This document shows positions 46,701-58,997 of a DNA stretch of 64,000 nt, in pieces. Numbering within the stretch: the first letter of the stretch is position 1; each line of letters begins with the position of its first letter. Under the pieces are notes generated by a model that worked only from the letters and a program-made list of their open reading frames with translations, had not been told where the DNA came from and did no database searches. The position numbers were made by a program, and so were the translations under genes. This stretch comes from Acidobacteriota bacterium (lineage in GTDB: Bacteria > Acidobacteriota > UBA6911). The stretch lies in contig QHZE01000458.1 in the NCBI GenBank assembly GCA_003225335.1, positions 4,754 to 68,753 of the forward strand. The letters are read 5' to 3'.

Positions 46701-46776
46701 TGGAGGCGCCGAGCGGATTCGAACCGCTGCATAAAGGTTTTGCAGACCTCTCCCTTAGCCACTTGGGTACGGCGCC
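46701..46776 (-). tRNA. tRNA-Cys (anticodon GCA), 73 nt + encoded CCA
   Basis: A manual fold gives: acceptor GGCGCCG/CGGCGCC; U8 A9; D-stem CCC/GGG; anticodon stem GAGGU/ACCUU; loop CUGCAAA (anticodon GCA); T-arm AGCGG-TTCGAAT-CCGCT; discriminator U73, a Cys identity element; CCA. Confidence 0.9.
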
Positions 46777-47070: not shown

Positions 47071-48213
47071 TCAGGCTCCAATTTCCAAAAGGGTGGCATC
47101 AAGGGGCAAAATATCCTCGGCATCCATCGGGGATTCCTGGCGACACGTATCCTGGATTTTGCGCGCCTCTTCAAGATTCTCAAAGAAGACGTCGAGTATC
47201 TGGGGATCGAAGTGGGAGCCACGGCCTTTGAGCATTGCTTCGCAGGCTCGTTCGTTGCTGAGGGCCTCCTTGTACGGCCGCGGGGTAGTCAGAGCATCAA
47301 ACACATCCGCAACAGCACAGATACGCCCGTACAACGGGATCTCTTCTCCGGCGAGCCCATAAGGGTAGCCCGTACCATCCCACTTCTCGTGATGGGAAAG
47401 GGCAATGCTCTCCCCTGCTTGCAGGAGCTTCGAGAGAGAGCCGTGTAGGATACAAGCGCCGATGACAGTGTGGCGTTTCATAATGGCCCATTCAACCGGA
47501 TTGAGCTTGCCGGCCTTCAGCAGGATGGCGTCAGGAATGCCGATCTTTCCCACATCATGCATCGGACTGGCATAGCGTAGGATCTCCACCTCGCCTGGAG
47601 GCAAGTCGAGGCTCCGGCCAATAAGGGCGCAGTAGTGGCTCATGCGTTGAATGTGAGCTGCCGTGTTCCCGTCTTTGTATTCTGCCGCCACAGCCAGACG
47701 TTGGATGGTGTCGAGGTGAGCGTCGTAGGCGCTCCGTTGAGCCTCAGCCATGGCCTGCAACGCCTGGTGGAGATCGGCCGTGCGCTTGCGCACCGTTTGC
47801 TCCAGGAGGGCTTGATTCCTCCTAAGCGCGTCCCGGGCTTCCTTCGTCTTCAGCAAAGACGACAGACGGACTCCGAGTTCTGTCAGGTCGACCGGTTTGG
47901 AGATAAAGTCATTTGCGCCCGCTTCGACCGCACGGAGCCGGGACTGTTTGCCGGACAGAGCCGTCACCATAACGATCGGGATCTCGTCAAGATCCGGATT
48001 ATTGCGAATTTGTTTGGCCACTTCGAAGCCGTCCATTCCGGGCATCGTCGCATCCAGAAGTACGAGGTCTATCTCCAGCTTCACCTTGGCCAGCGCTTCG
48101 ATTCCGTCCCGAGCACATTCAGACTCGTACCCTAAACAAGACACCATTGAGGCCAGCGTCTCTCTGTTGGGCTCTTCGTCATCTACGATTAAAATCTGTT
48201 TAAGGCGGTGCAT
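47071..48213 (-). CDS. Response regulator with an HD-GYP phosphodiesterase output domain (REC + HD-GYP)
   Basis: The REC domain is present (ILIVDDEEPNRE...D..MPGMDG...K). The HD-GYP motifs are present (HHEKWDGTGYPYGL). The start is at the internal ATG 48213, because the ORF track's 48273 is a GTG. Confidence 0.8.
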   Translation of the reverse strand: MHRLKQILIVDDEEPNRETLASMVSCLGYESECARDGIEALAKVKLEIDLVLLDATMPGMDGFEVAKQIRNNPDLDEIPIVMVTALSGKQSRLRAVEAGANDFISKPVDLTELGVRLSSLLKTKEARDALRRNQALLEQTVRKRTADLHQALQAMAEAQRSAYDAHLDTIQRLAVAAEYKDGNTAAHIQRMSHYCALIGRSLDLPPGEVEILRYASPMHDVGKIGIPDAILLKAGKLNPVEWAIMKRHTVIGACILHGSLSKLLQAGESIALSHHEKWDGTGYPYGLAGEEIPLYGRICAVADVFDALTTPRPYKEALSNERACEAMLKGRGSHFDPQILDVFFENLEEARKIQDTCRQESPMDAEDILPLDATLLEIGA

Positions 48214-48707
48214 CAATTTACTTTTTTCCCTATCCAGGGCAGATTCAGCTCTGACACCCTTGAAAATGGGCACAGAATGCAGTCCTGTACCCTGAGGAAC
48301 CGGAGGGCTCTGCTTGATCGTCCCGCCGAGTCCGACACGTTAGACGTGAACTTGAGACTTGGCGCTTATTCTCCAGAAGGAATCATGTGAAAGTCCGTGT
48401 CCCGTAGACTTGATCGGCAGGTTTGTACTCCAATTAGCAACCTTTCGGGGACAAAATTCGACCCTGGGCGCACCGGAACCAAGGAAACGACTCCGGCACT
48501 GATCGACTTCTGGACTTAAGCTCTTCGACTTGCTGAGGTTAGGATGGAGGTCGAAACGGAATTCGACCCCGCGCTTTCAACCTTGGCAATGCCTCCGGCA
48601 GCACAAAGCAGGCAGGTGAAACGTCAAAACACCGGCGCATGGCCGTCTCGGCCATGACCGGCTTAGATCCCCACTTCCCACGGGCGGGACACCCGTGCCA
48701 CGAGCCT

Positions 48708-48758: not shown

Positions 48759-50120
48759 TCATGGTTGGCTCGATTCGAGGTCGGAAGTGTATTGGTTGAT
48801 TTTATCCTCGACGGCAATGACTTCTACGTCGATGGTTTGGGCGCCGAACAGCGGTTTCAAGGCGGCGCGCGCCGCATCCAGAAGCGGCAGCGCGGTTTCA
48901 GAGAGACGTAAAATGACGGTGCCATCGGCGCGCTGGTGCAGACCGAACTGCGGAATAGGAAACTGGCCGAGAGCATGCGTGACATCGATATTGTTGATCC
49001 ATTCTTCGCTTTCCGTGCGAAACCGAACAGGTGGCCGGCCGGATAGACCGGTCAGCACTGGCGCCTCTGGGCTGAAAGAAAGCGAAGCGTAATCACCAGT
49101 GCGGTAACGCAGCAACGGCAGGCAAAAATTGAATCCACCGGTAAGCGTGATTTCGCCTCTTTCGCCGACGTTCACCGGATGCCCGGCCTTGTCGAGGATT
49201 TCGACGTAGAGCATCGGTTGCAACAAGACATGACCGCCGACCGCCGGATCGAACACGGCTACCGGACCTGCTTCGTTGAGCGAGTAGACGTCGAGCACGG
49301 GACAACCGAAGCGTTCCTCGAGACGTCGCCTCAAGCCGGGCGACAACATCATCGAGACCGAAATCAAAGCGCGCGGCCTCGCCGTGATCGGCAGGTTTAG
49401 AAGCTCAGCAAACGAAATTGGATCGCCCCCATAGACTTCTGGCGCCAGCGCGTCGAGATATCGCGCCCGGTCATCGGGGTCGCGCCAATCGTTCGGATGC
49501 AGATTGATCTTGGCCAATCCTGATTCGTCCATCGTCGGCGTCACCGACACATACGTGAAGCACTTGCGCTGATGGCCCAACAGCACGACACCCACTTGTC
49601 CGCCCCCGTGTGTGAGGTCAACGCCGAACCTTCGCAACGCCCGTTTGTGAAAAGCGAGATAACGACCGGCAACCATGGGGTGCGAGGCGATAAGCATGGG
49701 ATGGCCGGAAGTACCGGTAGTGCGGAAATTGATGAGCCGATCCAATTCGACCGAATCAGGAACGAAACGGGCGATGTCGGCGGCAAAATCGGCGCGCGAT
49801 ACGGTTGGTAGATCTTCAAAACGCGGCGGGGGCGAGCCGAGCGCTCGATAGAACGGAACGTCTTCAAAAGTACGCGCAACAAACGCTGTTGCCCAAGACG
49901 GCATGCAGCCCCGCGACCAACCCACAGCGGCTTCCAGGACTTCGCGTTCAAAAATCCGCAGCGCCTCGATATCCGCCGCCGTGAGGCGGTTGCCGCTTTG
50001 ATTGCGATAGACGGGCGCGGCGGGATGCTCGCGCATGAATTCGAGCATGCGCCGTCCCGCTTCCGTAAGCGTAGGGTAACGATCGTGATCGGTGACGAGG
50101 TCGCTCATTCGCGCGTCCAC
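48759..50120 (-). CDS. Adenylate-forming enzyme, phenylacetate-CoA ligase (PaaK)/coenzyme F390 synthetase-like
   Basis: 453 aa. ...NFRTTGTSGHPMLIASH... is a P-loop-like adenylation motif. The overall architecture is PaaK/F390-synthetase. It is the last gene of the minus-strand operon and overlaps the upstream gene by 16 nt. Confidence 0.7.
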   Translation of the reverse strand: MDARMSDLVTDHDRYPTLTEAGRRMLEFMREHPAAPVYRNQSGNRLTAADIEALRIFEREVLEAAVGWSRGCMPSWATAFVARTFEDVPFYRALGSPPPRFEDLPTVSRADFAADIARFVPDSVELDRLINFRTTGTSGHPMLIASHPMVAGRYLAFHKRALRRFGVDLTHGGGQVGVVLLGHQRKCFTYVSVTPTMDESGLAKINLHPNDWRDPDDRARYLDALAPEVYGGDPISFAELLNLPITARPRALISVSMMLSPGLRRRLEERFGCPVLDVYSLNEAGPVAVFDPAVGGHVLLQPMLYVEILDKAGHPVNVGERGEITLTGGFNFCLPLLRYRTGDYASLSFSPEAPVLTGLSGRPPVRFRTESEEWINNIDVTHALGQFPIPQFGLHQRADGTVILRLSETALPLLDAARAALKPLFGAQTIDVEVIAVEDKINQYTSDLESSQP

Positions 50121-50689
50121 TTGTCGGCCGATTCTTCGGCGGCCTTCTTGGCCAACGCCTCGCGGATGGCACGCGCGCGGCGCTCGGCGGCGCGACTCGC
50201 TTCCAGCAGACGGCGGCGCTCGGTACTGCTCAGGCTGGAGAGCCGATCTGTGGCTTGCGCAATGGTCTCGCGCGCCGGGCGATAGTTGAGACGCGCCAAT
50301 ACCACGCGCGCAAGCTCTTCGCGCCGATCGGTGTCGTTCACGAATTTATGCGCCGCCGTGGCCGCAGCCAGTTCGGTAACGGTTTCGTCGAGCACGCGCA
50401 GCGCGTCCGCTTGCGGGATTTTTACGGACACAAACCATTCATCCGCGAGCAGCCAAACCGTAATCATTGCAAGCGCAAGCCGATTTCGATCGATCTTCGC
50501 GTCCGCTCCATGAAAGCGCATGAGCGCGGCAGCCGGGGCTCGAGCGCCGTACAGAGACAAAAGATCGTTCACCAAGGCCGGAACAAACACGCGACCCGTT
50601 GTACCGATCCGTGGTTCATCGAGAAAATCAGGCGGCGTCTCGGCCAGACGTCGCGTCAGCTTTTCCAGTATTGGGCCTTGTCGTTCCAT
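50105..50689 (-). CDS. Hypothetical protein (194 aa, C-terminal charged/coiled region)
   Basis: No recognisable domain. It is translationally coupled, with its start 4 nt after the rSAM stop and an overlap with the next gene. Confidence 0.4.
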   Translation of the reverse strand: MERQGPILEKLTRRLAETPPDFLDEPRIGTTGRVFVPALVNDLLSLYGARAPAAALMRFHGADAKIDRNRLALAMITVWLLADEWFVSVKIPQADALRVLDETVTELAAATAAHKFVNDTDRREELARVVLARLNYRPARETIAQATDRLSSLSSTERRRLLEASRAAERRARAIREALAKKAAEESADKWTRE

Positions 50690-50692
50690 GGT

Positions 50693-51661
50693 TCAGACGG
50701 CGAACTTGGCAAAAACATGGGTAGAAGGACAATCGTTGCACACCGGCGCCGGCTTGCGCTCGCGCGCCGTCGCGAAACTCCCGGGCAAGGAGAGCAAACC
50801 GTCGACGGAGCAAACGGCCTTTAGCGGCAGACCGAAATTCTCTGACGTGAAACTACATGGCGAGACACGGCCGCGCTCATCGACGAACAGGAAGCTCTCG
50901 CCGGGGGCACAATCGTTGACCGCAAGACTGATGTCGTGCGTGCTCGCGTCGATCCTTCTGAGATACTGCCCGCTTCCACATAAGCGCACACCCCGGCGAG
51001 CGAGTCTTGAACGCAGCCTGGGCAATATCGCCGACAGGGTTTGCGAATCTTGGCGCCGTAAACGGTGTGCGGAGAAGAATGCCGGTCGATCGCGTCCACC
51101 CAGTTGATTGAAGGTGATCTCATCGAATCCCCATCCGGCGAGCGCTTCACACAAGTCGGCGAACATCGTCAAATTGTCGCGCATGAGCACGACATTGGCA
51201 CGCAGTTTTAGCTGCGCCGCCATTGCAGTACGCGCCTGTGCGAGCGTTTGCACCGCTTCACGAAGTTGGTGCCAACCTCCAGGCCAACCTCTCACGTGCT
51301 CGTGAAATTCGGCGAAGCCGTCCACGCTCACGGTAAGCTCGGAAAAGCATTCAAGAATGTGACGCTGCACGCGCCCCAGGTGAAGCGTCGTGCCATTAGT
51401 CGTCGCGCTGACTTCAATCTGGAAAGTTTGACGCAATCGGTGCGAGACCTCGAACACAGGACGCCAAAGCAACGGTTCACCGCCGAGCCAACTCAAGAGG
51501 ATGCGTTCACCGGTCGTTCGTCGATACTCGCCCAGCACTCGACAAAACCGTTCCACCATCTGCTCATCCACGTCTTGCCGTGAGCGGGAAAGCGTTCGGT
51601 CATAGGCGCAGAAAGGGCATGAGCGATTGCAGCGTTCGGTGACGCGCCAAACGACGATCAT
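50693..51661 (-). CDS. Radical SAM enzyme with a C-terminal SPASM/twitch-like Cys-rich region
   Basis: N-terminal CNRSCPFC (CxxxCxxC). C-terminal Cys cluster ...CGSGQY...CAPGE...SPCSF...CNDCPSTH. The ATG overlaps the upstream stop (ATGA). Confidence 0.75.
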   Translation of the reverse strand: MIVVWRVTERCNRSCPFCAYDRTLSRSRQDVDEQMVERFCRVLGEYRRTTGERILLSWLGGEPLLWRPVFEVSHRLRQTFQIEVSATTNGTTLHLGRVQRHILECFSELTVSVDGFAEFHEHVRGWPGGWHQLREAVQTLAQARTAMAAQLKLRANVVLMRDNLTMFADLCEALAGWGFDEITFNQLGGRDRPAFFSAHRLRRQDSQTLSAILPRLRSRLARRGVRLCGSGQYLRRIDASTHDISLAVNDCAPGESFLFVDERGRVSPCSFTSENFGLPLKAVCSVDGLLSLPGSFATARERKPAPVCNDCPSTHVFAKFAV

Positions 51662-53484
51662 GGGTGAGTCTCCGCCCGGGTCGCCTTTTCTTTTGCTGCA
51701 TAGTGGCGCCGGCTGAACGAGCGCGCGAATTCGAGCAAATCCTCAAATTTCGCGATGGCGTGTATCTCCCATCCCTGTTCCCGGCGTGCCCGCTTCAAGT
51801 CCTCGAATACCGGCAAGTTCCGCCCGGCTTTTTTTTGATCCCACGCCGCCGGCAGGTTCAACGCCATCGTCCCGCCCGCGCGGCCTGTTGCGAGCGCATT
51901 GGCGGAGATATCCCATCCGCTATTGCCGCGCTCGTCACGCTCGAACATGGTCGTTATGCCGTCGTCGGAAATCATCAGGATGTGGACGGGCCGGCTGTTC
52001 GCATTCCTGCCTGCATACGTGTCGCGCAGCTGATGAATCGGAAAACACGTCCCTCCACCGTAGAACCCCGTGAGCACCTTCAGGATTTTGTCTTCGTCGC
52101 GCACGAATCCATCGGTGTGCAAGACCTGGTTCTTGCCGCTCCATAACGTCACCTGCACTCTTGAGCCGACGCGCAACGCCGACAGCGCAATGATTGCGCC
52201 GGCCAGCGTGAGATACGACGTTTGCCGCTGCGGGTTTGGCATGGAACCGGAACTGTCGACGTACATATCGAGATCGACCGGCATCCGGTCCGGGGTTCGG
52301 CCCGTTTCGCGGCCATATAATCGCCGCACCGTGGTGAGGCCGGGAATAGGCCGAGGCGACTGCATCACGCTCTGCAGCCAGTCAACTTCGTCTAATGGAT
52401 CGCCGATGTCCCAAGGCTCCAGACCCTCCATTTGCGGTTCGTGCGATTCCGGTATCTCGCGGGTCGGGAATCGGACGATATGCGGCAAGGCCCGTTCGCG
52501 GTAATAGCGAACCGCGATGTCGTGATCGGACAGTTTGATCCCGGCCGCTTTCAATATCTCGCCGTATTCGAAAGGCTCGCGTGCCTGGCCCGAAGAGTTC
52601 GACGATTTCTCTCGTCCTTCAGGGTCCTCGCCAACGGGTTCATCGAGACCGGAGATGCTCGGATCTTCCGCCGGATGGACGGCGCCTTCAATCTCATCCG
52701 CCTCGATGTCCTGCGCGCCGGACGGCTCGCATCCTTCGGCGGCATCCTTCGTGTCGTGCAAATAGTCGAGCGCCTTTTTATTTTCAGTGTCCTCAACCAG
52801 ATACGGCAGTAAGAGGGTTGCGAACTTTCCGGCGCCCCTCAGCCAGTCATTAGCGTATACACGGATCAATCGCGCGCCCAGCCAGGCATCGGTATCAAGA
52901 CGCTCATCGGCGCTGCCGCCGCCCAGCGTGCCTTTGTCCAATTTCCACAAGTTTTCATAAACCCGCATGTAAAGCGTCCACACGCCGCTTTGCTTCGCCT
53001 GCCCGTCGCCCGAGGCTTGCGCCAGCCGCTTGTATATATCCGCCATGCGCAAGTCGGCCTGGCGTTGCAATCGATCATTGATGTAGAGATCGGTGTAGAG
53101 ATTGGCAACCATCGGCGCGTGCCGCTCGAGTGTGGGCAATGCCCGCCGGATTCGAGCGAGCAACCGAAACTGATCGGTGGCGTTGCCCGGAGCGAGCACG
53201 TGATGGCCAATCTCATGCGCGAGAATCTCAACGGCGTAGTCGTCGAGGCCGAGGCTGTGTACCGTTTCGAGATCCACGACCACGCTTTGATCGGCGAGGC
53301 GGATCATAGCGAAGCTGCCGCTCAGGCCTTCCTGTGCCGCTTCCACGCGGCTCTCGCACAAGCGCGCATCACGCAACCGCGTGAACTTGCTCCACACTGC
53401 GACTGCTTGCGGCCATGCCGCGCGCCAGCGCTCGATCAGTGCCGAGCGCTTAGCAAGGAATTCGGCGTCGCGCAAAACGCTCAT
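51658..53484 (-). CDS. vWA domain protein with an N-terminal HExxH (zincin-like) region
   Basis: N-terminal AHEIGHHVLAP (HExxH). C-terminal MIDAS DLDMYVDSSGSM plus the vWA fold. The start at 53484 overlaps the upstream stop (ATGA). Confidence 0.7.
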   Translation of the reverse strand: MSVLRDAEFLAKRSALIERWRAAWPQAVAVWSKFTRLRDARLCESRVEAAQEGLSGSFAMIRLADQSVVVDLETVHSLGLDDYAVEILAHEIGHHVLAPGNATDQFRLLARIRRALPTLERHAPMVANLYTDLYINDRLQRQADLRMADIYKRLAQASGDGQAKQSGVWTLYMRVYENLWKLDKGTLGGGSADERLDTDAWLGARLIRVYANDWLRGAGKFATLLLPYLVEDTENKKALDYLHDTKDAAEGCEPSGAQDIEADEIEGAVHPAEDPSISGLDEPVGEDPEGREKSSNSSGQAREPFEYGEILKAAGIKLSDHDIAVRYYRERALPHIVRFPTREIPESHEPQMEGLEPWDIGDPLDEVDWLQSVMQSPRPIPGLTTVRRLYGRETGRTPDRMPVDLDMYVDSSGSMPNPQRQTSYLTLAGAIIALSALRVGSRVQVTLWSGKNQVLHTDGFVRDEDKILKVLTGFYGGGTCFPIHQLRDTYAGRNANSRPVHILMISDDGITTMFERDERGNSGWDISANALATGRAGGTMALNLPAAWDQKKAGRNLPVFEDLKRARREQGWEIHAIAKFEDLLEFARSFSRRHYAAKEKATRAETHP

Positions 53485-54482
53485 AGCAGAGGAAACAACC
53501 GTATAGTGAAGGTGTAGAGGGAAGTGACCGCTATGGTATGTTCGTTGCACGTCACAGCCAGTCCGTCCTCCGGCAAGTCGAGCTCGACTTGACGTCCGCC
53601 CAACAAAAGCTTCGATCCTTTTAGCGGCGCCGTTTTTGCGCGCAGGTCGATCTTCGAGCCATCGAATTCTTCGGCCGTGGCCGGATGTAGTACCGCGCCG
53701 TAGGCATCAGCGATCAGGAAACTGAATCGATCGAAGCTCTTTACGCAGAAACCTTCGGCGTTGGCGCGAACTTCGGGCGGCGCGCGAAATATCCCGCCAA
53801 AACCCGTGAACTGTCCGATTTCGATACCCTGTAACGCACGACGCTTTTCAACGGCCGGCGCCCACCAGGGGTCAGCCAGGAAGTTTTCGCGCACGGACGT
53901 CCACTTATCGCCCGCGGCTGCTCCCACGGCGGCAAGCGCAACGTTTTCGGGCAGCTGGTCAGCAACCCGAATCGCGCCCAAGCGAAAGTGCGCGAGGCCA
54001 CCGCGCCACGCCATGATCTGCCCTATTGCTCGCAAGCATGAGACGGAATCGGCGTATTTGGCTAAATCAGTCATGCCCTGTATCCATTGATCGGCGCGCG
54101 CGTTCGGTACCTTGCCGATATTCACCGCTGCATTGGTAAGCGCGCCGAGCACTTCCACCGGCTGTTCCGACACCAGGCGCGCGTATTGGGGCGCCAGCGC
54201 TTGCCAGACGCGATCGATAAGCTCGCTGCGGGCGCCTGGACCCGCAAGCGCTTGACCAACGAGCTCGAGCCCAATGTCGTACGCCACGACGGCGACCGGC
54301 GCCACACGTTCTGGAGCGATCTCGGCGACGGAGCGTACTACCGCATCCACACTCGTGCGCAAGAAGGCGGCGAAGGCCATGCTGTCGAGCGCCGGATAGT
54401 GATGTTTCGCCTCCGCGACGCGGGCATTGAACTGCGCCCGGCCGGCAGCGAGCACTCGAGCCAAGGGATCAGAGATGGTCAT
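53481..54482 (-). CDS. Hypothetical protein (333 aa) encoded between the MoxR and vWA genes
   Basis: No recognisable motif. Its position matches the third component seen in ternary vWA-MoxR systems. Its start abuts the MoxR stop. Confidence 0.4.
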   Translation of the reverse strand: MTISDPLARVLAAGRAQFNARVAEAKHHYPALDSMAFAAFLRTSVDAVVRSVAEIAPERVAPVAVVAYDIGLELVGQALAGPGARSELIDRVWQALAPQYARLVSEQPVEVLGALTNAAVNIGKVPNARADQWIQGMTDLAKYADSVSCLRAIGQIMAWRGGLAHFRLGAIRVADQLPENVALAAVGAAAGDKWTSVRENFLADPWWAPAVEKRRALQGIEIGQFTGFGGIFRAPPEVRANAEGFCVKSFDRFSFLIADAYGAVLHPATAEEFDGSKIDLRAKTAPLKGSKLLLGGRQVELDLPEDGLAVTCNEHTIAVTSLYTFTIRLFPLL

Positions 54483-56063
54483 TTATTGTGAGCGCAGCCA
54501 GTGTAGATAGTTGGTATAGCGCTGATGCAGATATTTAAGCTTGAGCAGATCGTCGTACAGGTGACCATATAATTTGCGGCCCTTTACGAGTTCGCCGATC
54601 AAGCGCTCGATCTTGGAAAGCCTTGAACGCGTCTCGCGCTCGCTGAGACCGTCCAATCCCTTGGCAAAATCGGCGGAGAGTTCGCCGACCGCATCGTTGC
54701 GATCAAGATCGAGACGGTTGTACTCGTCGTTGGCGAGATCGAACAAGCGGCGCAGCCATCCCAGACGGTCTGTGCGATACGCTGCATTCTCCGGAAGACC
54801 GAAGAACGGCGCATCCAGATCCGGCTGCAGTTTGTCGTGCAACACGAACGGCAGAGTCTGGCGCACGTCTTCGAGCTCCACGGTTCGGTTACCCCGAAAA
54901 TATGTCAGCGCCTTGGCAAAAATCAGCAGAGTCATCAGATTGCGCACCGACAAACCGTTGCGCGTCTGACATCCCAGGTCCTTGAGCCGATCGCGGCCGT
55001 TATCCGCTGCCACCATCTGACCCCAGTCGATACCGGAAAGCCGCGCGGTATCTTTCGTCATGTATTCGAACTGGGCGCCTGCGGTTTCAAAGAGCTCGAA
55101 CTGGCTGGCGAAGAATTCCAACCGGCGGCGCACCTCGACAGGTACTTCCACCTGGAGGATCTGCTCGCCGAGACGTTCGACCTCTTTTTCGGTGAATACA
55201 ATCTCGCGTGGCACAACCTCTTCGGGTCGAATGTTTTCTTCGATACGCACCAACAGATCACCGAGGAAGCGCGGGTTAAACGCCAGCGCCTGTACGATCA
55301 CGTCGATGCGGTCGCGCAGCGCTTCGATTACCTGGTAAGTGCCGCCGCCCTGGTCGTCGTTCGCCGTCAGGTACCACGCGGATTCCGGGCATTCGTAGAT
55401 ATGGTTCAGCACCTCCGCGTAGTTGTCCCCCATGACCGTCAACAACGCGCTTTGCGTGCGCGTGGGGATACGGTTGTATTCATCGACAATTTTCACCCGC
55501 ATCGACAACCACGAGCGCCACGCGATGCGGATGTCGTTCATGCTCTGCGCGTTCACCAAATCCGCCGGCAACGGATTGCCGAGCAAATCGGCGATCGTCA
55601 TTTGCGGATGTCCATGCTGCATTGCGCGGCGTACTTCGCGCACTGGATAACCGGCCAAGACGCCCATCAAAACTGCGCTTGCCGTTTTGCCTCGGCCTGC
55701 ACCGCCGACGAACAAGCATTTGCGCCGGGTCGCGAATGTCAACAGCGGGAACAAGATGAAGCTGGAGTAACTTTGAGCGGAGGGGAGCGTCAGCGTTCGT
55801 TTGCTGTCTCCAACCGCATATGTCTGCGCCGGTCCATCGTTGTACTCGACATCGTAGTGCGGGCTGATGACCGCATTGTTCACGATCCAGAAGTAAGCCT
55901 GCCGAAGTTTTTCATCGAGGGCCTGACTTCCTTCCTCGACCGCGGCGCCCGTTTGAATTGGTCCCTCATACAGGTCTGCAACGTCGAATTGACGAGTCTT
56001 CGGCGGGGCTTTCGGATTGGTGGGAGCTTGGGATACGCGCTGAAAAATGTTGAAAGGTGCCAT
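54483..56063 (-). CDS. MoxR-like AAA+ ATPase (with N- and C-terminal extensions)
   Basis: Walker A LFVGGAGRGKTASAV. Walker B KIVDEYNRI. The MoxR-type lid ...LSVRNLMTLLIFAKALTYFRG. AGGACGA RBS. Confidence 0.75.
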   Translation of the reverse strand: MAPFNIFQRVSQAPTNPKAPPKTRQFDVADLYEGPIQTGAAVEEGSQALDEKLRQAYFWIVNNAVISPHYDVEYNDGPAQTYAVGDSKRTLTLPSAQSYSSFILFPLLTFATRRKCLFVGGAGRGKTASAVLMGVLAGYPVREVRRAMQHGHPQMTIADLLGNPLPADLVNAQSMNDIRIAWRSWLSMRVKIVDEYNRIPTRTQSALLTVMGDNYAEVLNHIYECPESAWYLTANDDQGGGTYQVIEALRDRIDVIVQALAFNPRFLGDLLVRIEENIRPEEVVPREIVFTEKEVERLGEQILQVEVPVEVRRRLEFFASQFELFETAGAQFEYMTKDTARLSGIDWGQMVAADNGRDRLKDLGCQTRNGLSVRNLMTLLIFAKALTYFRGNRTVELEDVRQTLPFVLHDKLQPDLDAPFFGLPENAAYRTDRLGWLRRLFDLANDEYNRLDLDRNDAVGELSADFAKGLDGLSERETRSRLSKIERLIGELVKGRKLYGHLYDDLLKLKYLHQRYTNYLHWLRSQ

Positions 56064-56147
56064 CGTTTCGTCCTGTATCGTGTCCTCGGACTTCTGATTG
56101 TCGAAGTCCGAGGACCACTGACCTCACCGCACTTACTAGGGATTTCG

Positions 56148-56385
56148 CAAATACGGTAACCTAACCGCTCCGGAGCGGTAGGAACTTAGCCAGGGGTGAG
56201 CGCTTTTGCGAACCCCTGGAACCCGTGCCTACGCGACCAACGCGCCCCGGCAGGGGCGCGGGGAACTCCTGCAACCCCTGCCGGGGTGCGTATCGTTGTT
56301 CCTATTCTACCCGGGGGCTCGCTTCGCTCACCCCCAGCTAAGCTCCTTGCGCCCCGCCGGGGCGAAATGCGTTACCGTTTTATGG
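56148..56385. mobile_element. MITE family B copy inserted between two genes of the operon; it supplies the stop codon of the 776-aa gene
   Basis: The TIRs are gcaaatacggtaac ... gttaccgttttatgg. The TAA stop of the 56380-58710 gene is formed by the terminal nucleotides 56380-56382. Confidence 0.7.
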
Positions 56386-58710
56386 ATCACCTACTTCGTT
56401 CGGAAACTCGCGAATCGTTCTCTCCTGAAGCTCGGTTTCGATCGCGCGCGGCGACCGTATCTTGCGCACGAGATCGATCGCAGCGGGCGCTTCAAAACCT
56501 CGCGATCTCAAGAAACAAGCTGCCACCGTTCCGGCCCGCCCCAAGCCGCCGACGCAGTGAACCAGTACATTTTCCCCATCCTTCAGTTGTTTCGACAGTC
56601 GGGAAACAGCATCTAATAGTTCGGTTCGACCCGGCACGCGTCCATCAACGGCAGGCAAATGCTCCACTTCGATCCCGAGCGCGCTGTACCGGGACAACAG
56701 ATCGTTTACGCCGTATCGGTGGAATTCGTCGTCAGTCAACAAACAAATAACTCTATCGATATGCTCGTTCATTAAGACTCTTAAATCCTCGTCGAGCGAA
56801 CGTCCATAATCGCGACGCCCCGGCATAATAGTAAGGCCGAGTCTGCCTGGGGTGGTGATAGCCTGAGGCAGCCAATCGATACGAAGCGGCCCAACTCGTG
56901 AAGCGCGCTGTGTCAAGGCATCGGCAGCGAGGCACGCCGAGTACAGTGCCCACCGTTTTTGCCATATGTTTGACTCTTGAAAACTCAGCGTATGGACGGC
57001 GTACCGAATATGACCGATTAACCATTGAGAGGGGTCACGATCAGCGTGAACCAGCTCGGGATAGTGCTCGCGCAGCAGGCCGACGATCCGGTAGGCGCGT
57101 CTGAGCTCCGGATGGGTCACCGCAGCGTTCAGCGCCGGCAGTGGCGCCGCCAGATCTTCGATCGCTATCAACAGTTCGCTTATTTGGATCGCTTGAGCGA
57201 AGTCGTGCTCATTTTCGATCCTGGTGAAAATATAGAGCAGGTCGTTTTCAAGTTTGATCAAGTCCCGCAACACATGGCCGCGGTGCGCATGAAAGAAATC
57301 GATCAGCCACACATTCGCTTGGCCGTCGATAATGATGTTTGCGCCATTGAGATCGCCGTGCACGTATGAGAAATAGTGGGAACGCGGGATGCGCGGCAAG
57401 GCGGCCAGCGTTTGACCGTAGAACTTCACAATATTTGGCGCGTTTCTGCCACCCGGAAATTCCAATGAATCGGTCCCGGCCGGCGCGCTGAGAACCTCTC
57501 CGACCCTGTGCGCAACCGAAGACGCCCATTCCGGTTTGAAGTCGTAATACTGAAAGAGATCCGACCGTTCGGCCTGCGCGGCACGATAAAAGCGGCCCAG
57601 CTGATCAACGAATACTGAATCAAGTATTCGTTTGACGTCTTGATCAGACGCACCGGCTTCATAGATTTTCTGAAACGAACGGGAATCGCCGCGTCCCATG
57701 GCGGCATAGCGATATTTGATGGCGCCCCGTGTTTCCAGATCCGCAAAGTCCGCGACACGCGGAGCCGAATTCCCCAGCACCGCTTCAATCCGCTCAAACG
57801 ATGTACGCTCCTTGCCGATGAGCGCCTTTGGGCCGATCTTCACGACATGCGGCACCTGCTCATGGCCATGGAGGTCGATGCTTTTTGTTCCGAGAACAAA
57901 GTTGCCAGAGAATCCGCCATCCAATGTGCGAACGTCGACATGTCGACAACCGCGGAACAGGTAACGCACTAACTTGCGGTCGGTATCGCTAAGCGCCGTT
58001 TTGTCGAGCACCTGTACGTCGGGATGTTTTTGGCTGAATCCAATAAGCGGCGCGTCCTCGACCTTCCCGCCAAGGAACTCGATGAATTCGCCTACCGACG
58101 GTATAACATCCACCCCAAGAATACGTTCGAGCTGATCAAGCGCCACGAAGTGATTTTCGCGCGACGAGCTTGCCGTGAGCGCGGAACACACCGCCAGGCG
58201 GAAGTGCGGATAACGACTGCGCAGATCGTAGCCGAGGAAAGTGATCTTCGCTTCCGTCCACACGCCCATCAATCCCACGCATACCGCAGTTGTGCAATAA
58301 GGGCGCAGGACGTCGTCCAGGTGTGCATCGACAAAGTTGCTTAGCGTTGTCGCGTCAACGATTTCGAGGCGCTTGTTCGCGTGTACGTTTTGGATGTCAA
58401 AGACAAATTCGGCTCCAATCGAATTTCGTAAACAATGCCGGCCAAATTGCTCCAGATGAGACCGCTGCTTCGGGTCGCTGGAATCATGCCAGTCGCGAAC
58501 ATGAATGACCTTGAGGATTTCATCGGGTTGAGCATGCGCCCACGTGATCATGCGAGCGACGGGCCCCTCCGCCGGATTCCTTCCCAACAAACGCAGTGAT
58601 TCGTCGTGACCGACGTGCAATGCATTCGGTAACCCTTCGAAACGGCCAACCGGACCGACGAAGTCGTTCTGCAGGCAGTCGGTTATAAGGATCGAGGTGT
58701 TCGCCGACAT
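56380..58710 (-). CDS. Three-domain fusion protein: isochorismatase-like hydrolase + APH/kinase-like domain + protein-tyrosine/dual-specificity phosphatase (776 aa)
   Basis: N-terminus: ILITDCLQNDF ... TTAVCVGLMG (isochorismatase/nicotinamidase-type motifs with a Cys). Middle: SYVHGDLNGANIIID...WLIDFF (Brenner HGD...N and DF kinase motifs). C-terminus: VLVHCVGGLGRAGT (HCx5R PTP loop). Confidence 0.7.
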   Translation of the reverse strand: MSANTSILITDCLQNDFVGPVGRFEGLPNALHVGHDESLRLLGRNPAEGPVARMITWAHAQPDEILKVIHVRDWHDSSDPKQRSHLEQFGRHCLRNSIGAEFVFDIQNVHANKRLEIVDATTLSNFVDAHLDDVLRPYCTTAVCVGLMGVWTEAKITFLGYDLRSRYPHFRLAVCSALTASSSRENHFVALDQLERILGVDVIPSVGEFIEFLGGKVEDAPLIGFSQKHPDVQVLDKTALSDTDRKLVRYLFRGCRHVDVRTLDGGFSGNFVLGTKSIDLHGHEQVPHVVKIGPKALIGKERTSFERIEAVLGNSAPRVADFADLETRGAIKYRYAAMGRGDSRSFQKIYEAGASDQDVKRILDSVFVDQLGRFYRAAQAERSDLFQYYDFKPEWASSVAHRVGEVLSAPAGTDSLEFPGGRNAPNIVKFYGQTLAALPRIPRSHYFSYVHGDLNGANIIIDGQANVWLIDFFHAHRGHVLRDLIKLENDLLYIFTRIENEHDFAQAIQISELLIAIEDLAAPLPALNAAVTHPELRRAYRIVGLLREHYPELVHADRDPSQWLIGHIRYAVHTLSFQESNIWQKRWALYSACLAADALTQRASRVGPLRIDWLPQAITTPGRLGLTIMPGRRDYGRSLDEDLRVLMNEHIDRVICLLTDDEFHRYGVNDLLSRYSALGIEVEHLPAVDGRVPGRTELLDAVSRLSKQLKDGENVLVHCVGGLGRAGTVAACFLRSRGFEAPAAIDLVRKIRSPRAIETELQERTIREFPNEVGDP

Positions 58711-58721
58711 GGCGCTCGGAG

Positions 58722-58997
58722 TTATGAGTTTTTCGCTGGTGTTTGAACGGATTGTTCAGCTCGTCGTTTTTCATCGACAAGTCTGGCTTCGGTTATTAAT
58801 TCGTCACATTTGATAAGTAGCGGGAACACCTCGCCGGTCCTATTCCGCGGAATCTCCTCCGCCCCTTCGGTTGTCAGCGTTTCCGTGGACGTCAGCAAAT
58901 AAATACGGGTGGGCGCTCGACGGGGCAGGGGTTGGCCATTTGCTATCGGGAAATGTGTCTTAAATCCAATATCGGCCGGTTTGATTCCGATAACCAT
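58722..58997 (-). CDS. Small hypothetical protein (91 aa) immediately upstream (11 nt) of the 776-aa gene
   Basis: ATG start with no recognisable family. It is a possible first gene of the operon. Confidence 0.3.
   Translation of the reverse strand: MVIGIKPADIGFKTHFPIANGQPLPRRAPTRIYLLTSTETLTTEGAEEIPRNRTGEVFPLLIKCDELITEARLVDEKRRAEQSVQTPAKNS

What the first reader, a model, noticed from the sequence alone, without database searches (positions are those of the whole stretch)
48759..58997. Eight-gene co-directional operon combining a MoxR-vWA core with a radical SAM enzyme, an adenylating enzyme and a hydrolase/kinase/phosphatase fusion
Gene order on the minus strand is: small ORF (91 aa), the 776-aa isochorismatase-like/kinase-like/PTP fusion, MoxR AAA+ ATPase, an unknown 333-aa protein, HExxH-vWA, radical SAM/SPASM-like, an unknown 194-aa protein, and a PaaK/F390-synthetase-like enzyme. 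Every junction downstream of MoxR is a 0-16 nt overlap (ATGA-type), so these genes are almost certainly co-translated. MoxR + vWA (+ a third protein) is the core of reported NTP-dependent 'ternary' signalling/conflict systems. I do not recognise the combination with a radical SAM enzyme, an adenylating enzyme and a kinase/phosphatase fusion as a described system. It lies next to a tRNA, a response regulator and MITEs, in an accessory-looking setting.
Basis: partly seen in the sequence, partly recalled or inferred. Interest (0 to 1): 0.9.

Follow-up and report, generated by a model that had tools for sequence, protein, structure and literature searches.

The report
MoxR-vWA gene cassette tied to NAD salvage
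This is a real, widely conserved but undescribed gene cassette built around a MoxR ATPase and a protease-vWA protein. In most other bacteria it sits inside vitamin B3 (NAD) salvage operons, so it probably serves NAD metabolism rather than being a classic defence system.

Summary
Seven of the eight minus-strand ORFs are real genes. The 91-aa ORF is probably noise. All domain calls hold: nicotinamidase-like/TCAD9 kinase-like/DSP-phosphatase fusion, MoxR, HExxH-vWA with an intact MIDAS motif, radical SAM, PaaK-like adenylating enzyme. The tight ATGA-type junctions downstream of MoxR are also confirmed.

The conserved unit is MoxR, a 333-aa protein, zincin-vWA, a 194-aa protein and the PaaK-like ligase, always in that order. 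It was kept in 80 genomes from several phyla. The radical SAM gene is optional (about a quarter of loci).

The main new result is context. In 35 of 37 assessable lineages a NadR-like gene adjoins the cassette, often with the nicotinamide-riboside transporter PnuC. In some genomes the cassette continues a pncA-pncB-nadM-ADP-ribosylglycohydrolase array next to NrtR.

The three-domain fusion is a facultative partner. It adjoins the cassette in eight other contigs in three arrangements, and elsewhere sits beside NAMPT, NadM and an NAD-kinase-like gene.

The 194-aa family ends almost invariably in Arg-Glu-COOH.

No phage, plasmid or PADLOC match was found, and no paper in the searchable library describes the cassette. 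It is best read as a new variant of MoxR-vWA three-component systems coupled to NAD salvage. The mechanism is inferred only.

The parts
58722..58997 (-). 91-aa ORF, probably not a gene
   Evidence: GC3 is 0.48 against 0.61-0.73 for neighbouring genes. tblastn matches only in near-identical contigs of the same strain (L090-L092), and only partial in two of them. Small ORFs ahead of the fusion gene in L088 and L089 are unrelated. No Pfam, NCBIfam or PADLOC hit.
56380..58710 (-). 776-aa fusion: nicotinamidase-like (isochorismatase fold) + TCAD9 kinase-like + DSP-type protein-tyrosine-phosphatase-like domain; a facultative partner of the cassette
   Evidence: Pfam TCAD9 E 2.8e-61, CDKN3/PTP-SAK/DSPc, weak isochorismatase. 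HGDLNGAN, IDF and HCVGGLGRAGT motifs and an RDWHD...H motif. The family profile hits nicotinamidases 3s2s and 1ilw, and KAP/DSP phosphatases. More than 1400 full-length homologues. Adjacent to the cassette in L087, L088, L100, L104, L123, L134, L153 and L159.
56171..56356 (.). MITE-like element (32-nt terminal inverted repeats, 81% complementary) inside the 316-nt spacer between the fusion gene and MoxR
   Evidence: the repeat finder pair I2. The spacer is full of GC-rich palindromes. The same junction is 13-33 nt in L087, L100, L104 and L153.
54483..56063 (-). MoxR-family AAA+ ATPase, 526 aa, with conserved N- and C-terminal extensions
   Evidence: AAA_3 28.7 bits and AAA_lid_2 22.8 bits, both just above cut-off. 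Walker A GGAGRGKTAS and Walker B IVDEYNR are conserved. Profile hit to MoxR structure 2R44, E 1.9e-6. 67-92% identity in other genomes.
53481..54482 (-). 333-aa conserved 'third component': helical N-domain plus a beta C-domain resembling 2-3 propeller blades
51658..53484 (-). 608-aa zincin-like (HEIGHH) domain, acidic linker and vWA domain with a complete MIDAS motif
   Evidence: Translation. Invariant H90, E91, H94, H95 and D406...D410, S412, S414...T479...D507 in 32 orthologues. VWA_2 is sub-threshold in 19 of 32 members. No solved-structure match by sequence.
50693..51661 (-). Radical SAM enzyme, 322 aa, with a C-terminal 4-Cys (twitch/SPASM-like) motif; an optional member of the cassette
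   Evidence: Radical_SAM E 7.5e-13. Weak hits of similar strength to NirJ, SPASM maturases, viperin and MoaA. CX3CX2C and C251/C269/C308/C311 are conserved. Present in 21 of the 80 genome loci. Found in another position in L123.
50105..50689 (-). 194-aa all-helical protein ending in an exposed helix and a near-invariant ...Arg-Glu-COOH tail
48759..50120 (-). PaaK-like adenylate-forming (ANL) enzyme; start at 50120 (GTG) or 50108 (ATG, ATGA overlap with the 194-aa gene)
   Evidence: AMP-binding E 1.2e-8; DVU_1553-family and PaaK hits. Best solved relatives are PaaK 2y4o and AjiA1. TTGTSGHP, YRTGD, GRPP and C-terminal DK motifs are conserved. Always directly after the 194-aa gene.
47071..48273 (-). 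Response regulator with an HD-GYP-type domain; a neighbour, not a conserved part of the cassette
   Evidence: Response_reg + HD_5. 485-nt gap from the ligase gene. Only weak, scattered similar genes in other loci.

Best explanation
The window carries one copy of a conserved, chromosomal, previously undescribed MoxR-vWA module. Its genes are MoxR ATPase, a 333-aa helical/propeller-like adaptor, a zincin-vWA protein, an optional radical SAM enzyme, a 194-aa helical protein ending in Arg-Glu-COOH, and a PaaK-like adenylating enzyme.

Shown: across bacteria this module is part of nicotinamide-riboside/NAD salvage operons.
- It is usually followed by PnuC and a NadR-like NMN adenylyltransferase/riboside kinase.
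- In some genomes it continues a pncA-pncB-nadM-ADP-ribosylglycohydrolase array next to NrtR.
- In this Acidobacteria-like genome PnuC and NadR are missing from the locus. The module is instead preceded by a nicotinamidase-like/kinase-like/phosphatase fusion, which is a recurrent facultative partner and is itself found beside NAMPT, NadM and an NAD-kinase-like gene elsewhere.

Inferred working model:
- The vWA MIDAS site captures an acidic peptide. The best candidate is the exposed Arg-Glu-COOH tail of the 194-aa protein.
- The MoxR hexamer, docked through the 333-aa adaptor, uses ATP to remodel the bound complex. The zincin domain may clip it.
- The tightly coupled PaaK-like enzyme adenylates a carboxylate. 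This could be the terminal Glu of the 194-aa protein or a pyridine carboxylate such as the nicotinic-acid moiety of a riboside or nucleotide.
- The output controls or feeds the NR to NMN to NAD route.
- The radical SAM enzyme and the fusion protein are accessory tailoring or regulatory activities.
For: Cassette conservation and order: 80 genome loci in Beta-, Gamma-, Alpha- and Deltaproteobacteria, Acidobacteria, Verrucomicrobia and Anaerolineales.

NAD link:
- A NadR-like gene adjoins the cassette in 35 of 37 assessable clusters (70% identity clusters); PnuC is present in about 30 loci.
- NadR-like proteins match TIGR01526 over their full length (E 1e-43 to 1e-50). PnuC scores above the TIGR01528 cut-off.
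- Paucimonas has NrtR directly upstream, with divergent pncB-nadE-nadM-ARH.
- Massilia L010 and L038 have a shared palindromic box before the pncA-like gene, and the ARH stop lies 2-3 nt from the MoxR ATG.

Fusion partner:
- Adjacent to the cassette in three arrangements, with gaps of 13-33 nt.
- The nicotinamidases are the only matches to its N-domain among the 60 solved-structure matches listed.
- Other contexts include NAMPT, NadM, an NAD-kinase-like gene and NrtR.

Catalytic competence: Walker A/B, HExxH, MIDAS, ANL core motifs and rSAM cysteines are all conserved.

Tail: Glu is the last residue in 94% and Arg the penultimate in 88% of 144 diverse members. The tail is flexible in the model.

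Translational coupling of the 194-aa gene with the ligase gene, and of MoxR, 333-aa and vWA.

Not defence-like: no PADLOC system, no phage or plasmid copies, and stable synteny in Janthinobacterium.
Against: - No biochemical role for a MoxR-vWA machine in NAD salvage is known, and none of the mechanistic steps was tested.
- The window itself has no NadR, PnuC or NrtR within 64 kb and no NrtR-like box.
- A few lineages place the cassette under other regulators, for example LuxR/LuxI/MarR in L040.
- Adenylation of a protein C-terminus by a PaaK-like enzyme has no precedent known to me.
- The ligase's substrate cannot be read from the sequence.
- Gene adjacency shows functional linkage but not its direction. 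The cassette could consume NAD-derived molecules rather than make them.
Confidence: 0.5

Rival explanations
1. It is an NTP-dependent conflict (anti-phage or abortive-infection) system of the MoxR-vWA ternary type. MoxR-vWA would threshold the release of an effector. The NAD genes (NadR, PnuC, nicotinamidase fusion) would serve NAD depletion or restoration, or build a toxic or signalling pyridine-nucleotide analogue during infection.
For: - The MoxR + vWA + conserved third protein layout matches Kaur et al. 2020.
- Pfam names the fusion's kinase-like domain 'ternary complex associated'.
- That paper's simple FtsH-type systems pair a vWA protein with an alpha-helical N-domain, a radical SAM enzyme and a separate peptide gene.
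- The rSAM core scores against prokaryotic viperin models.
- Some loci lie near GmrSD, Xre/MbcA-type antitoxin, RHS and integrase genes.
- NAD is a common battleground in phage defence (PMC9503650).
Against: - No recognisable toxin or effector domain, and no hypervariable region.
- MoxR is 67-92% identical and the 194-aa protein about 65% identical across phyla.
- The locus is syntenic in about 25 Janthinobacterium species.
- PADLOC finds no system.
- No copies on phages or plasmids.
- The defining features of each described ternary subtype are missing (see membership test).
- The neighbours are ordinary salvage genes, next to an NrtR regulator gene and a shared palindromic box that is a candidate operator.
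Confidence: 0.25
2. It is a biosynthetic pathway for a small molecule built on or cut from a protein scaffold (RiPP- or cofactor-like, as for PQQ, mycofactocin or LysW-type carrier chemistry), or for a modified pyridine nucleotide. The 194-aa protein would be the precursor or carrier, the zincin the processing protease, the rSAM and ligase the tailoring enzymes, and MoxR-vWA the assembly chaperone.
For: - A near-invariant C-terminal Arg-Glu-COOH, with the stop-codon position conserved.
- A zincin motif, an rSAM with an auxiliary 4-Cys motif and an adenylating enzyme in one operon.
- Full-length weak similarity of the rSAM to the mycofactocin and PapB maturases.
- Kaur et al. describe zincin + precursor + rSAM peptide-processing add-ons to ternary systems.
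- LysW and Pup use a C-terminal Glu as an attachment point (my own knowledge).
Against: - The rSAM is absent from about three quarters of the loci and was lost repeatedly.
- The 194-aa protein is conserved along its whole length and folds into a compact helical domain, unlike a leader-core peptide.
- Only the last two tail residues are strongly conserved. The Trp noted in close relatives is Y/W/M/A family-wide.
- No partner-protein residues track the presence of the rSAM.
Confidence: 0.2
3. The neighbourhood is an accidental juxtaposition of unrelated genes.
For: - The fusion gene is absent within 10 kb of the cassette in all 80 genome loci.
- In the window it is separated from MoxR by 316 nt carrying a mobile-looking repeat.
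- The response regulator and tRNA are not conserved neighbours.
Against: - The five core genes keep the same order and tight spacing in 80 genomes.
- The fusion adjoins the cassette in eight further contigs at 44-76% fusion identity, in three arrangements, including a 4-nt overlap with the rSAM gene in L123.
Confidence: 0.03

Closest known systems
MoxR-vWA-centric 'ternary' systems of Kaur, Burroughs, Iyer & Aravind 2020 (eLife 9:e52696; PMC7159879), especially the beta-propeller-containing and the simple FtsH subtypes
   Same: - A MoxR AAA+ ATPase, a vWA partner with a long helical N-terminal region and an acidic linker, and a conserved third protein.
- An occasional radical SAM gene plus a separate protein with a conserved C-terminus.
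- Association with a TCAD9-domain protein.
- The third protein here combines a helical region with propeller-like blades.
   Different: - No FtsH-type, VMAP-C or iSTAND third component.
- No four-bladed propeller after the vWA domain.
- Ordinary GRGKT P-loop.
- No effector or hypervariable domains.
- Strong sequence conservation.
- Adds a PaaK-like ligase and a 194-aa Arg-Glu-COOH protein.
- Embedded in NAD salvage operons, which that paper does not report.
MoxR + metallopeptidase-vWA pair of group 2.2 jumbo phages (Iyer et al. 2021, Viruses 13:63; PMC7824862)
   Same: The same two-gene logic: a MoxR ATPase with a vWA co-chaperone carrying an N-terminal metallopeptidase domain, proposed to couple remodelling with proteolytic processing.
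   Different: - No detectable sequence relatives of this MoxR or vWA in 50,697 phage records.
- The phage pair is proposed for virion assembly.
- It lacks the 333-aa, 194-aa, ligase and NAD-gene partners.
PnuC-NadR nicotinamide riboside salvage and the NrtR regulon (Rodionov et al. 2008, PMC2330246)
   Same: In most genomes the cassette is co-directional and overlapping with pnuC and a nadR-like gene. In some it lies next to NrtR, pncA/pncB, nadM and nadE.
   Different: - The five cassette proteins are not part of any described NAD pathway or NrtR regulon; that paper has no occurrence of 'ATPase', 'Willebrand', 'AMP-binding', 'CoA ligase' or 'radical'.
- The NadR-like proteins score below the TIGR01526 cut-off.
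- The window's copy has no PnuC or NadR.
MoxR-vWA enzyme activases and metal-insertion chaperones (CbbQ-CbbO, NorQ-NorD, CoxD-CoxE, RavA-ViaA, BchI-BchD)
   Same: An AAA+ hexamer plus a MIDAS-containing adaptor that grips an acidic residue of a client and remodels it. This is the most established way such pairs work (summarised; details from my own knowledge).
   Different: - The client is unknown.
- The vWA protein carries a zincin motif instead of an AAA-like or CoxE-type N-domain.
- Two extra dedicated proteins and an adenylating enzyme belong to the unit.
C-terminal-Glu carrier and tag proteins (LysW/ArgW amino-group carriers; Pup)
   Same: A strictly terminal Glu on a flexible tail, encoded next to an ATP-dependent ligase. 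Pup is also handled by an AAA+ ATPase (my own knowledge).
   Different: - The ligase here is of the ANL/PaaK type, not ATP-grasp or glutamine-synthetase-like.
- The 194-aa protein has no sequence or fold similarity to LysW or Pup.
- No attachment chemistry was shown.

Membership tests
MoxR-vWA ternary systems (generic definition, Kaur et al. 2020) | MoxR-clade AAA+ ATPase with intact Walker A/B | tested here: met
   AAA_3 and AAA_lid_2 above cut-off. Profile hit to MoxR structure 2R44. GRGKT and DEYNR are invariant.
MoxR-vWA ternary systems (generic definition, Kaur et al. 2020) | vWA partner with metal-binding MIDAS aspartates | tested here: met
   DxSxS, T and D are invariant in 32 orthologues. 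Pfam VWA_2 is only sub-threshold at 18.8 bits.
MoxR-vWA ternary systems (generic definition, Kaur et al. 2020) | A conserved third component encoded with the pair | tested here: met
   The 333-aa protein lies between MoxR and vWA in 83 loci.
MoxR-vWA ternary systems (generic definition, Kaur et al. 2020) | Variable effector domains or hypervariability typical of conflict systems | tested here: not met
   No effector domain in any cassette protein. Mean column conservation is 0.47-0.80 across phyla.
Beta-propeller-containing ternary subtype | [quoted passage not shown] | tested here: not met
   The protein ends about 20 residues after the last vWA element.
Beta-propeller-containing ternary subtype | Third component with a variable N-terminal region and membrane segment, then TPR and beta-propeller | tested here: inconclusive
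Beta-propeller-containing and FtsH ternary subtypes | Peculiar MoxR P-loop of the form GXXXTAKS (said to be frequent, not universal) | tested here: not met
   The P-loop is GGAGRGKTAS.
FtsH ternary subtype | Third component with two FtsH-type AAA+ domains | tested here: not met
   No such gene in the window operon or in the related loci. The 333-aa protein has no AAA+ hit.
VMAP and iSTAND ternary subtypes | VMAP-C domain or inactive STAND NTPase in the third component | tested here: not met
   No Pfam hit of any kind for the 333-aa protein at E up to 5. Fold search gives only propeller-blade matches.
Peptide-processing add-on (zincin + small precursor + rSAM/SPASM; FxSxx-COOH type) | Small, rapidly diverging precursor with a conserved C-terminal peptide | tested here: not met
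   The 194-aa protein is conserved throughout (73% mean column identity among close members) and is folded. Only the terminal Arg-Glu is strongly conserved.
Peptide-processing add-on (zincin + small precursor + rSAM/SPASM; FxSxx-COOH type) | Radical SAM/SPASM maturase always present with the precursor | tested here: not met
   The rSAM is present in only 21 of 80 genome loci, while the 194-aa gene is in 73.
PaaK-like subfamily of adenylate-forming (ANL) enzymes | ANL core motifs and closest similarity to PaaK-type ligases | tested here: met
   TTGTSGHP, YRTGD, GRPP and C-terminal DK are conserved. Best solved relatives are PaaK and AjiA1. Scores are far below the PaaK and DVU_1553 equivalog cut-offs, so this is a distinct family.
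PnuC-NadR nicotinamide riboside salvage operon | PnuC transporter and NadR (NMN adenylyltransferase + riboside kinase) in the locus | tested here: not met
   Absent from the 64-kb window by tblastn. Present next to the cassette in 35 of 37 assessable lineages elsewhere.
Known anti-phage defence systems (PADLOC-DB v2) | Any cassette protein matching a defence-system model | tested here: not met
   Only the rSAM core matches pVip models (E 2.8e-15, residues 3-165), which is generic rSAM similarity. The other seven proteins have no hit.
Nicotinamidase (PncA) branch of the isochorismatase superfamily (N-domain of the fusion) | Asp-Lys-Cys triad and a DxH...H metal site; nicotinamidase activity | tested here: inconclusive
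   Invariant K155, C175 and the RDWHD...H motif. Nicotinamidases 3s2s and 1ilw are the only N-domain matches among the 60 listed. The Pfam score is below cut-off. Activity cannot be tested here.

The most novel reading that the evidence does not exclude
The cassette performs a so far unknown, ATP-driven step of pyridine-nucleotide metabolism. One example: a PaaK-type enzyme adenylates the terminal Glu of a dedicated 194-aa carrier protein, or the nicotinic-acid carboxylate of a riboside or nucleotide, while a MoxR-vWA-zincin machine loads, remodels or releases it. That would feed or gate the PnuC/NadR route to NAD. It would be a new enzyme-chaperone system in a pathway thought to be fully mapped, and the first metabolic role for a 'ternary' MoxR-vWA system.
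Probability: 0.25. Interest if true: 0.85.

Novelty: new variant of a known kind. Interest (0 to 1): 0.66.

Why it matters
- NAD salvage in bacteria is regarded as essentially complete. Here five proteins of unknown function, including two families with no domain annotation (656 and at least 204 clusters), are co-operonic with PnuC/NadR in almost every lineage that has them. That implies a missing function in nicotinamide-riboside or NAD handling.
- It would give MoxR-vWA 'ternary' systems, so far interpreted only as conflict systems, a metabolic or regulatory client that can be tested in culturable hosts (Janthinobacterium, Massilia, Paucimonas, Collimonas).
- The near-invariant Arg-Glu-COOH tail next to an adenylating enzyme is a concrete biochemical hypothesis.
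- The nicotinamidase-kinase-phosphatase fusion (more than 1400 homologues) gains a functional context.

Tried and rejected
- PADLOC scan of all eight proteins: only generic pVip similarity for the rSAM core.
- Kaur et al. 2020: 'TCAD' or 'TCAD9' does not occur in the main text; 'radical SAM' occurs once, in the FtsH-subtype section. The one supplementary file held has none of TCAD, rSAM, radical, isochorismatase, PTP, NadR, PnuC, ligase or propeller. The related 2021 eLife paper also has nothing.
- Literature searches for NrtR+MoxR and PnuC+NadR+MoxR found no paper; MoxR+NadR found one, where the two terms are unrelated.
- tblastn of MoxR and vWA against phages, and of MoxR against plasmids: no match.
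- Sequence and profile searches of the solved-structure library: nothing for the vWA protein. For MoxR only the profile gave a hit, to 2R44.
- Fold search of the 194-aa model: no meaningful match.
- Fold search of the 333-aa model: only partial propeller matches.
- The afdb50 library was unavailable.
- Profile-profile comparison of the 333-aa and the 194-aa families with the vWA family: no internal homology.
- A shared regulatory motif upstream of MoxR: the enriched TGCAATAATTTC word is almost confined to the Janthinobacterium-type loci and looks like a lineage-specific promoter element, not a common operator.
- The Massilia/Paucimonas NrtR-like box is absent from the window.
- Residues in partner proteins that track rSAM presence: none.
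- Rfam: no riboswitch near the operon.
- Direct homology between the fusion's N-domain and the Paucimonas PncA-like protein: not detectable by BLASTP.

Full report
**1. What is in the window**

Profile searches confirm every domain call.

- The 776-aa protein matches Pfam TCAD9 ('ternary complex associated domain 9', E 2.8e-61). It also matches several DSP-type phosphatase families at 607-751 and, weakly, the isochorismatase domain at 51-196.
- Its sequence shows an APH-like catalytic loop (HGDLNGAN), an IDF motif, a canonical HCVGGLGRAGT phosphatase loop and an RDWHD...H motif.
- The next gene matches the MoxR families AAA_3 and AAA_lid_2 just above their cut-offs. A profile of 30 orthologues hits the MoxR structure 2R44.
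- The 608-aa protein has HEIGHH, an acidic linker and a vWA domain. The DxSxS...T...D MIDAS residues are invariant in 32 orthologues, although VWA_2 scores below its cut-off.
- The 322-aa protein is a radical SAM enzyme with CX3CX2C and four conserved C-terminal cysteines.
- The last gene is an adenylate-forming enzyme whose closest solved relatives are PaaK and AjiA1. Its core motifs are intact.
- The 333-aa and 194-aa proteins have no hit in Pfam, NCBIfam or PADLOC.

Two corrections are needed.

- The 91-aa ORF is probably not a gene. Its GC3 is 0.48 against 0.61-0.73 for the neighbours. It is found only in near-identical contigs of the same strain, and only partially in two of them.
- The fusion gene is separated from MoxR by 316 nt that contain a MITE-like element with 32-nt inverted ends.

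An Acido-Lenti-1 RNA elsewhere in the window suggests an Acidobacteria-like host. So does the closest cassette relative, which is in an Acidobacteria MAG.

**2. The conserved unit**

The 333-aa protein has 204 detected homologues, all unannotated. A scan of one genome per species found 153 loci, of which 80 were kept with 10-kb flanks.

tblastn of all window proteins against these loci gives a clear picture.

- MoxR, 333-aa, zincin-vWA, 194-aa and ligase are present in that order wherever the contig is complete.
- MoxR is 67-91% identical in these loci, and 92% in the related contig L086. vWA is 55-84%, the ligase 55-78%, the 194-aa protein 40-84% and the 333-aa protein 32-76% identical.
- The hosts are Beta-, Gamma-, Alpha- and Deltaproteobacteria, Acidobacteria, Verrucomicrobia and Anaerolineales.
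- The radical SAM gene sits between vWA and the 194-aa gene in only 21 of the 80 genome loci. These are scattered over the tree. One close relative keeps a 40-codon ORF in its place.
- The rSAM is therefore ancestral or mobile, but dispensable.
- None of the 80 loci has the fusion gene, the 91-aa ORF or the upstream hydrolase within 10 kb.

**3. The unexpected context: NAD salvage**

Clustering of flanking ORFs showed two conserved co-directional genes after the ligase.

- One is PnuC. It scores above the TIGR01528 cut-off.
- The other is a NadR-like protein with an HxGH nucleotidyltransferase domain and a P-loop kinase domain. It matches TIGR01526 over its full length (E 1e-43 to 1e-50), below the cut-off.
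- After dereplication at 70% identity, 35 of 37 assessable lineages have the NadR-like gene next to the cassette. It usually overlaps the preceding gene. In four loci it lies just upstream of MoxR, and in one it lies downstream on the opposite strand.
- In Paucimonas, NrtR lies directly upstream of MoxR, with divergent pncA-like, pncB, nadE, nadM-Nudix and ADP-ribosylglycohydrolase genes.
- In two Massilia genomes the order is pncA-like, pncB, nadM, ARH, MoxR, 333-aa, vWA, 194-aa, ligase, pnuC, nadR, all on one strand. The ARH stop lies 2-3 nt from the MoxR start.
- The same palindromic box (ACTTAGTT-N9-AAnTAAGT) sits before the first gene there, and in the Paucimonas NrtR/pncA intergenic region.
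- No paper in the searchable library links MoxR with NrtR, PnuC or NadR.

**4. The fusion protein is a real but facultative partner**

The three-domain architecture is itself widespread, with more than 1400 full-length homologues. It adjoins the cassette in eight further contigs.

- It lies upstream and co-directional, with 13-33-nt gaps, in L087, L100, L104 and L153. The gap is 223 nt in L134.
- It is divergent in L088 and L159.
- In the divergent cassette of L123 it lies downstream. There the order is MoxR, 333-aa, vWA, 194-aa, ligase, rSAM, fusion, and the fusion start overlaps the rSAM stop by 4 nt.
- L087 reproduces the window's gene order and adds PnuC and NadR.
- The 316-nt spacer in the window is thus best explained by the MITE-like insertion.

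Elsewhere the fusion sits beside NadM-Nudix, NAMPT, a Band-7 protein and an NAD-kinase-like protein, once with NrtR. It also sits beside STAS/SpoIIE partner-switching genes.

For its N-domain, the only matches among the 60 listed in a profile search of solved structures are nicotinamidases.

Among fusion-linked cassettes that can be assessed, three of four lack NadR and PnuC, and four of five have the rSAM. The numbers are small, but they hint that the fusion may substitute for, or complement, the NadR/PnuC pair.

**5. The two unknown proteins**

- The 194-aa model (pLDDT 87.8) is all-helical with a long terminal helix whose end is flexible. It matches no known fold.
- An exhaustive HMM search finds 656 clusters at 50% identity for the 194-aa family. 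Almost all are stand-alone proteins of 190-200 residues aligned to their very last residue.
- In 144 diverse members the last residue is Glu in 135 and Asp in 4. The penultimate residue is Arg in 127. The Trp seen in close relatives is not conserved.
- The 194-aa gene is always immediately followed by the ligase gene, usually overlapping it.

**6. How it most likely works**

*Shown:* a conserved five-gene MoxR-vWA module with intact catalytic motifs is genetically coupled to NR/NAD salvage genes. It is also coupled, facultatively, to a radical SAM enzyme and to a nicotinamidase-like/kinase/phosphatase fusion.

*Established for the families* (summarised): vWA MIDAS sites bind an acidic residue of an extended peptide, and the MoxR ring uses ATP to remodel or release the bound client.

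*Inferred:*
- The Arg-Glu-COOH tail of the 194-aa protein is the MIDAS ligand and/or the ligase substrate.
- The 333-aa protein is the adaptor.
- The zincin domain processes the client.
- The ligase adenylates either that terminal Glu or a pyridine carboxylate.
- The output gates or feeds the NR to NMN to NAD route.

I give the system-level statement about 0.5, and any single mechanistic step no more than about 0.25.

**7. Rivals**

- *Conflict system.* This reading keeps some weight. The layout is ternary-like, TCAD9 is associated, a viperin-like score is seen for the rSAM core, and NAD is a common battleground. Against it: there is no effector and no variability, no PADLOC hit, no phage or plasmid copies, and synteny is stable across Janthinobacterium.
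- *RiPP or cofactor pathway.* This fits the tail, the zincin and the rSAM. It is weakened by the repeated loss of the rSAM and by the conservation of the whole 194-aa protein.
- *Accidental juxtaposition.* This is excluded.

**8. Comparison with known systems**

The nearest described kind is the MoxR-vWA ternary systems of Kaur et al. 2020. The defining third components or vWA architectures of all four subtypes are absent.

A metallopeptidase-vWA + MoxR pair is reported in jumbo phages, but it shows no detectable sequence relationship to this one.

I therefore classify the locus as a new variant of a known kind. Its novel feature is the tight coupling to NAD salvage and the ligase/Arg-Glu-COOH protein pair.

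Noticed in passing
window:19296-19341 (-): Rfam Acido-Lenti-1 sRNA, 47.4 bits against a gathering score of 37. Together with the closest cassette relative being in an Acidobacteria MAG (L041), this suggests the window comes from an Acidobacteria-like genome.
   Followed up: no
window:59171-59440: A second MITE-like element between the fusion-gene region and the upstream 705-aa alpha/beta-hydrolase gene. It has 40-nt inverted arms, 85% complementary, 190 nt apart.
   Followed up: no
window:46931-46976: A perfect 18-nt inverted repeat with a 10-nt loop, about 155 nt from tRNA-Cys (46701-46776). It could be a terminator or a repeat element.
   Followed up: no
L084:9518-9991 and 25 Janthinobacterium-type loci: An extra 157-aa gene with no family hit is inserted between MoxR and the 333-aa gene. 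It occurs in 25 loci, all in the Janthinobacterium-type group, which lack the rSAM and PnuC.
   Followed up: partly
L007:11011-18140 and L081:6067-11882: In these two loci the cassette is split by about 5 kb of foreign DNA. The split lies between vWA and rSAM in L007, and between the 333-aa gene and vWA in L081. These may be insertions that inactivate the operon.
   Followed up: no
L089:5082-20583; L094, L096, L136: The fusion gene recurs with a Band-7 protein and a 310-aa NAD-kinase-like protein (L094, L096, L136). NAMPT is added in L094 and L096, and NrtR in L096. In Sinimarinibacterium (L089) the fusion sits with NadM-Nudix, NAMPT and Band-7, next to a WYL-type regulator, an integrase-like gene and a 2416-aa RHS/teneurin-like protein. 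This may be a separate NAD-centred module.
   Followed up: partly
L093-L169 (about 9 loci, e.g. L131:570-908, L125:42-989): In another subset the fusion gene is preceded by a STAS-domain anti-sigma antagonist and a SpoIIE/PP2C-HATPase-like protein. This suggests partner-switching control of, or by, the fusion.
   Followed up: no
L087:1328-1981: A DUF4291 gene directly precedes the fusion gene in the contig that best reproduces the window's gene order. Its role is unknown.
   Followed up: no
L085:16512-17222 and L082:17733-18455: Unannotated genes of about 236-240 aa follow nadR-like in two loci. They were not compared with each other.
   Followed up: no
L040:5829-8350: In a Hyphomonadaceae genome that lacks NadR and PnuC at the locus, the cassette is preceded by LuxR, LuxI, a stand-alone receiver domain and a MarR regulator. 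The window also has a response regulator (HD-GYP) nearby, so non-NrtR regulation may be a theme in NadR-less copies.
   Followed up: partly
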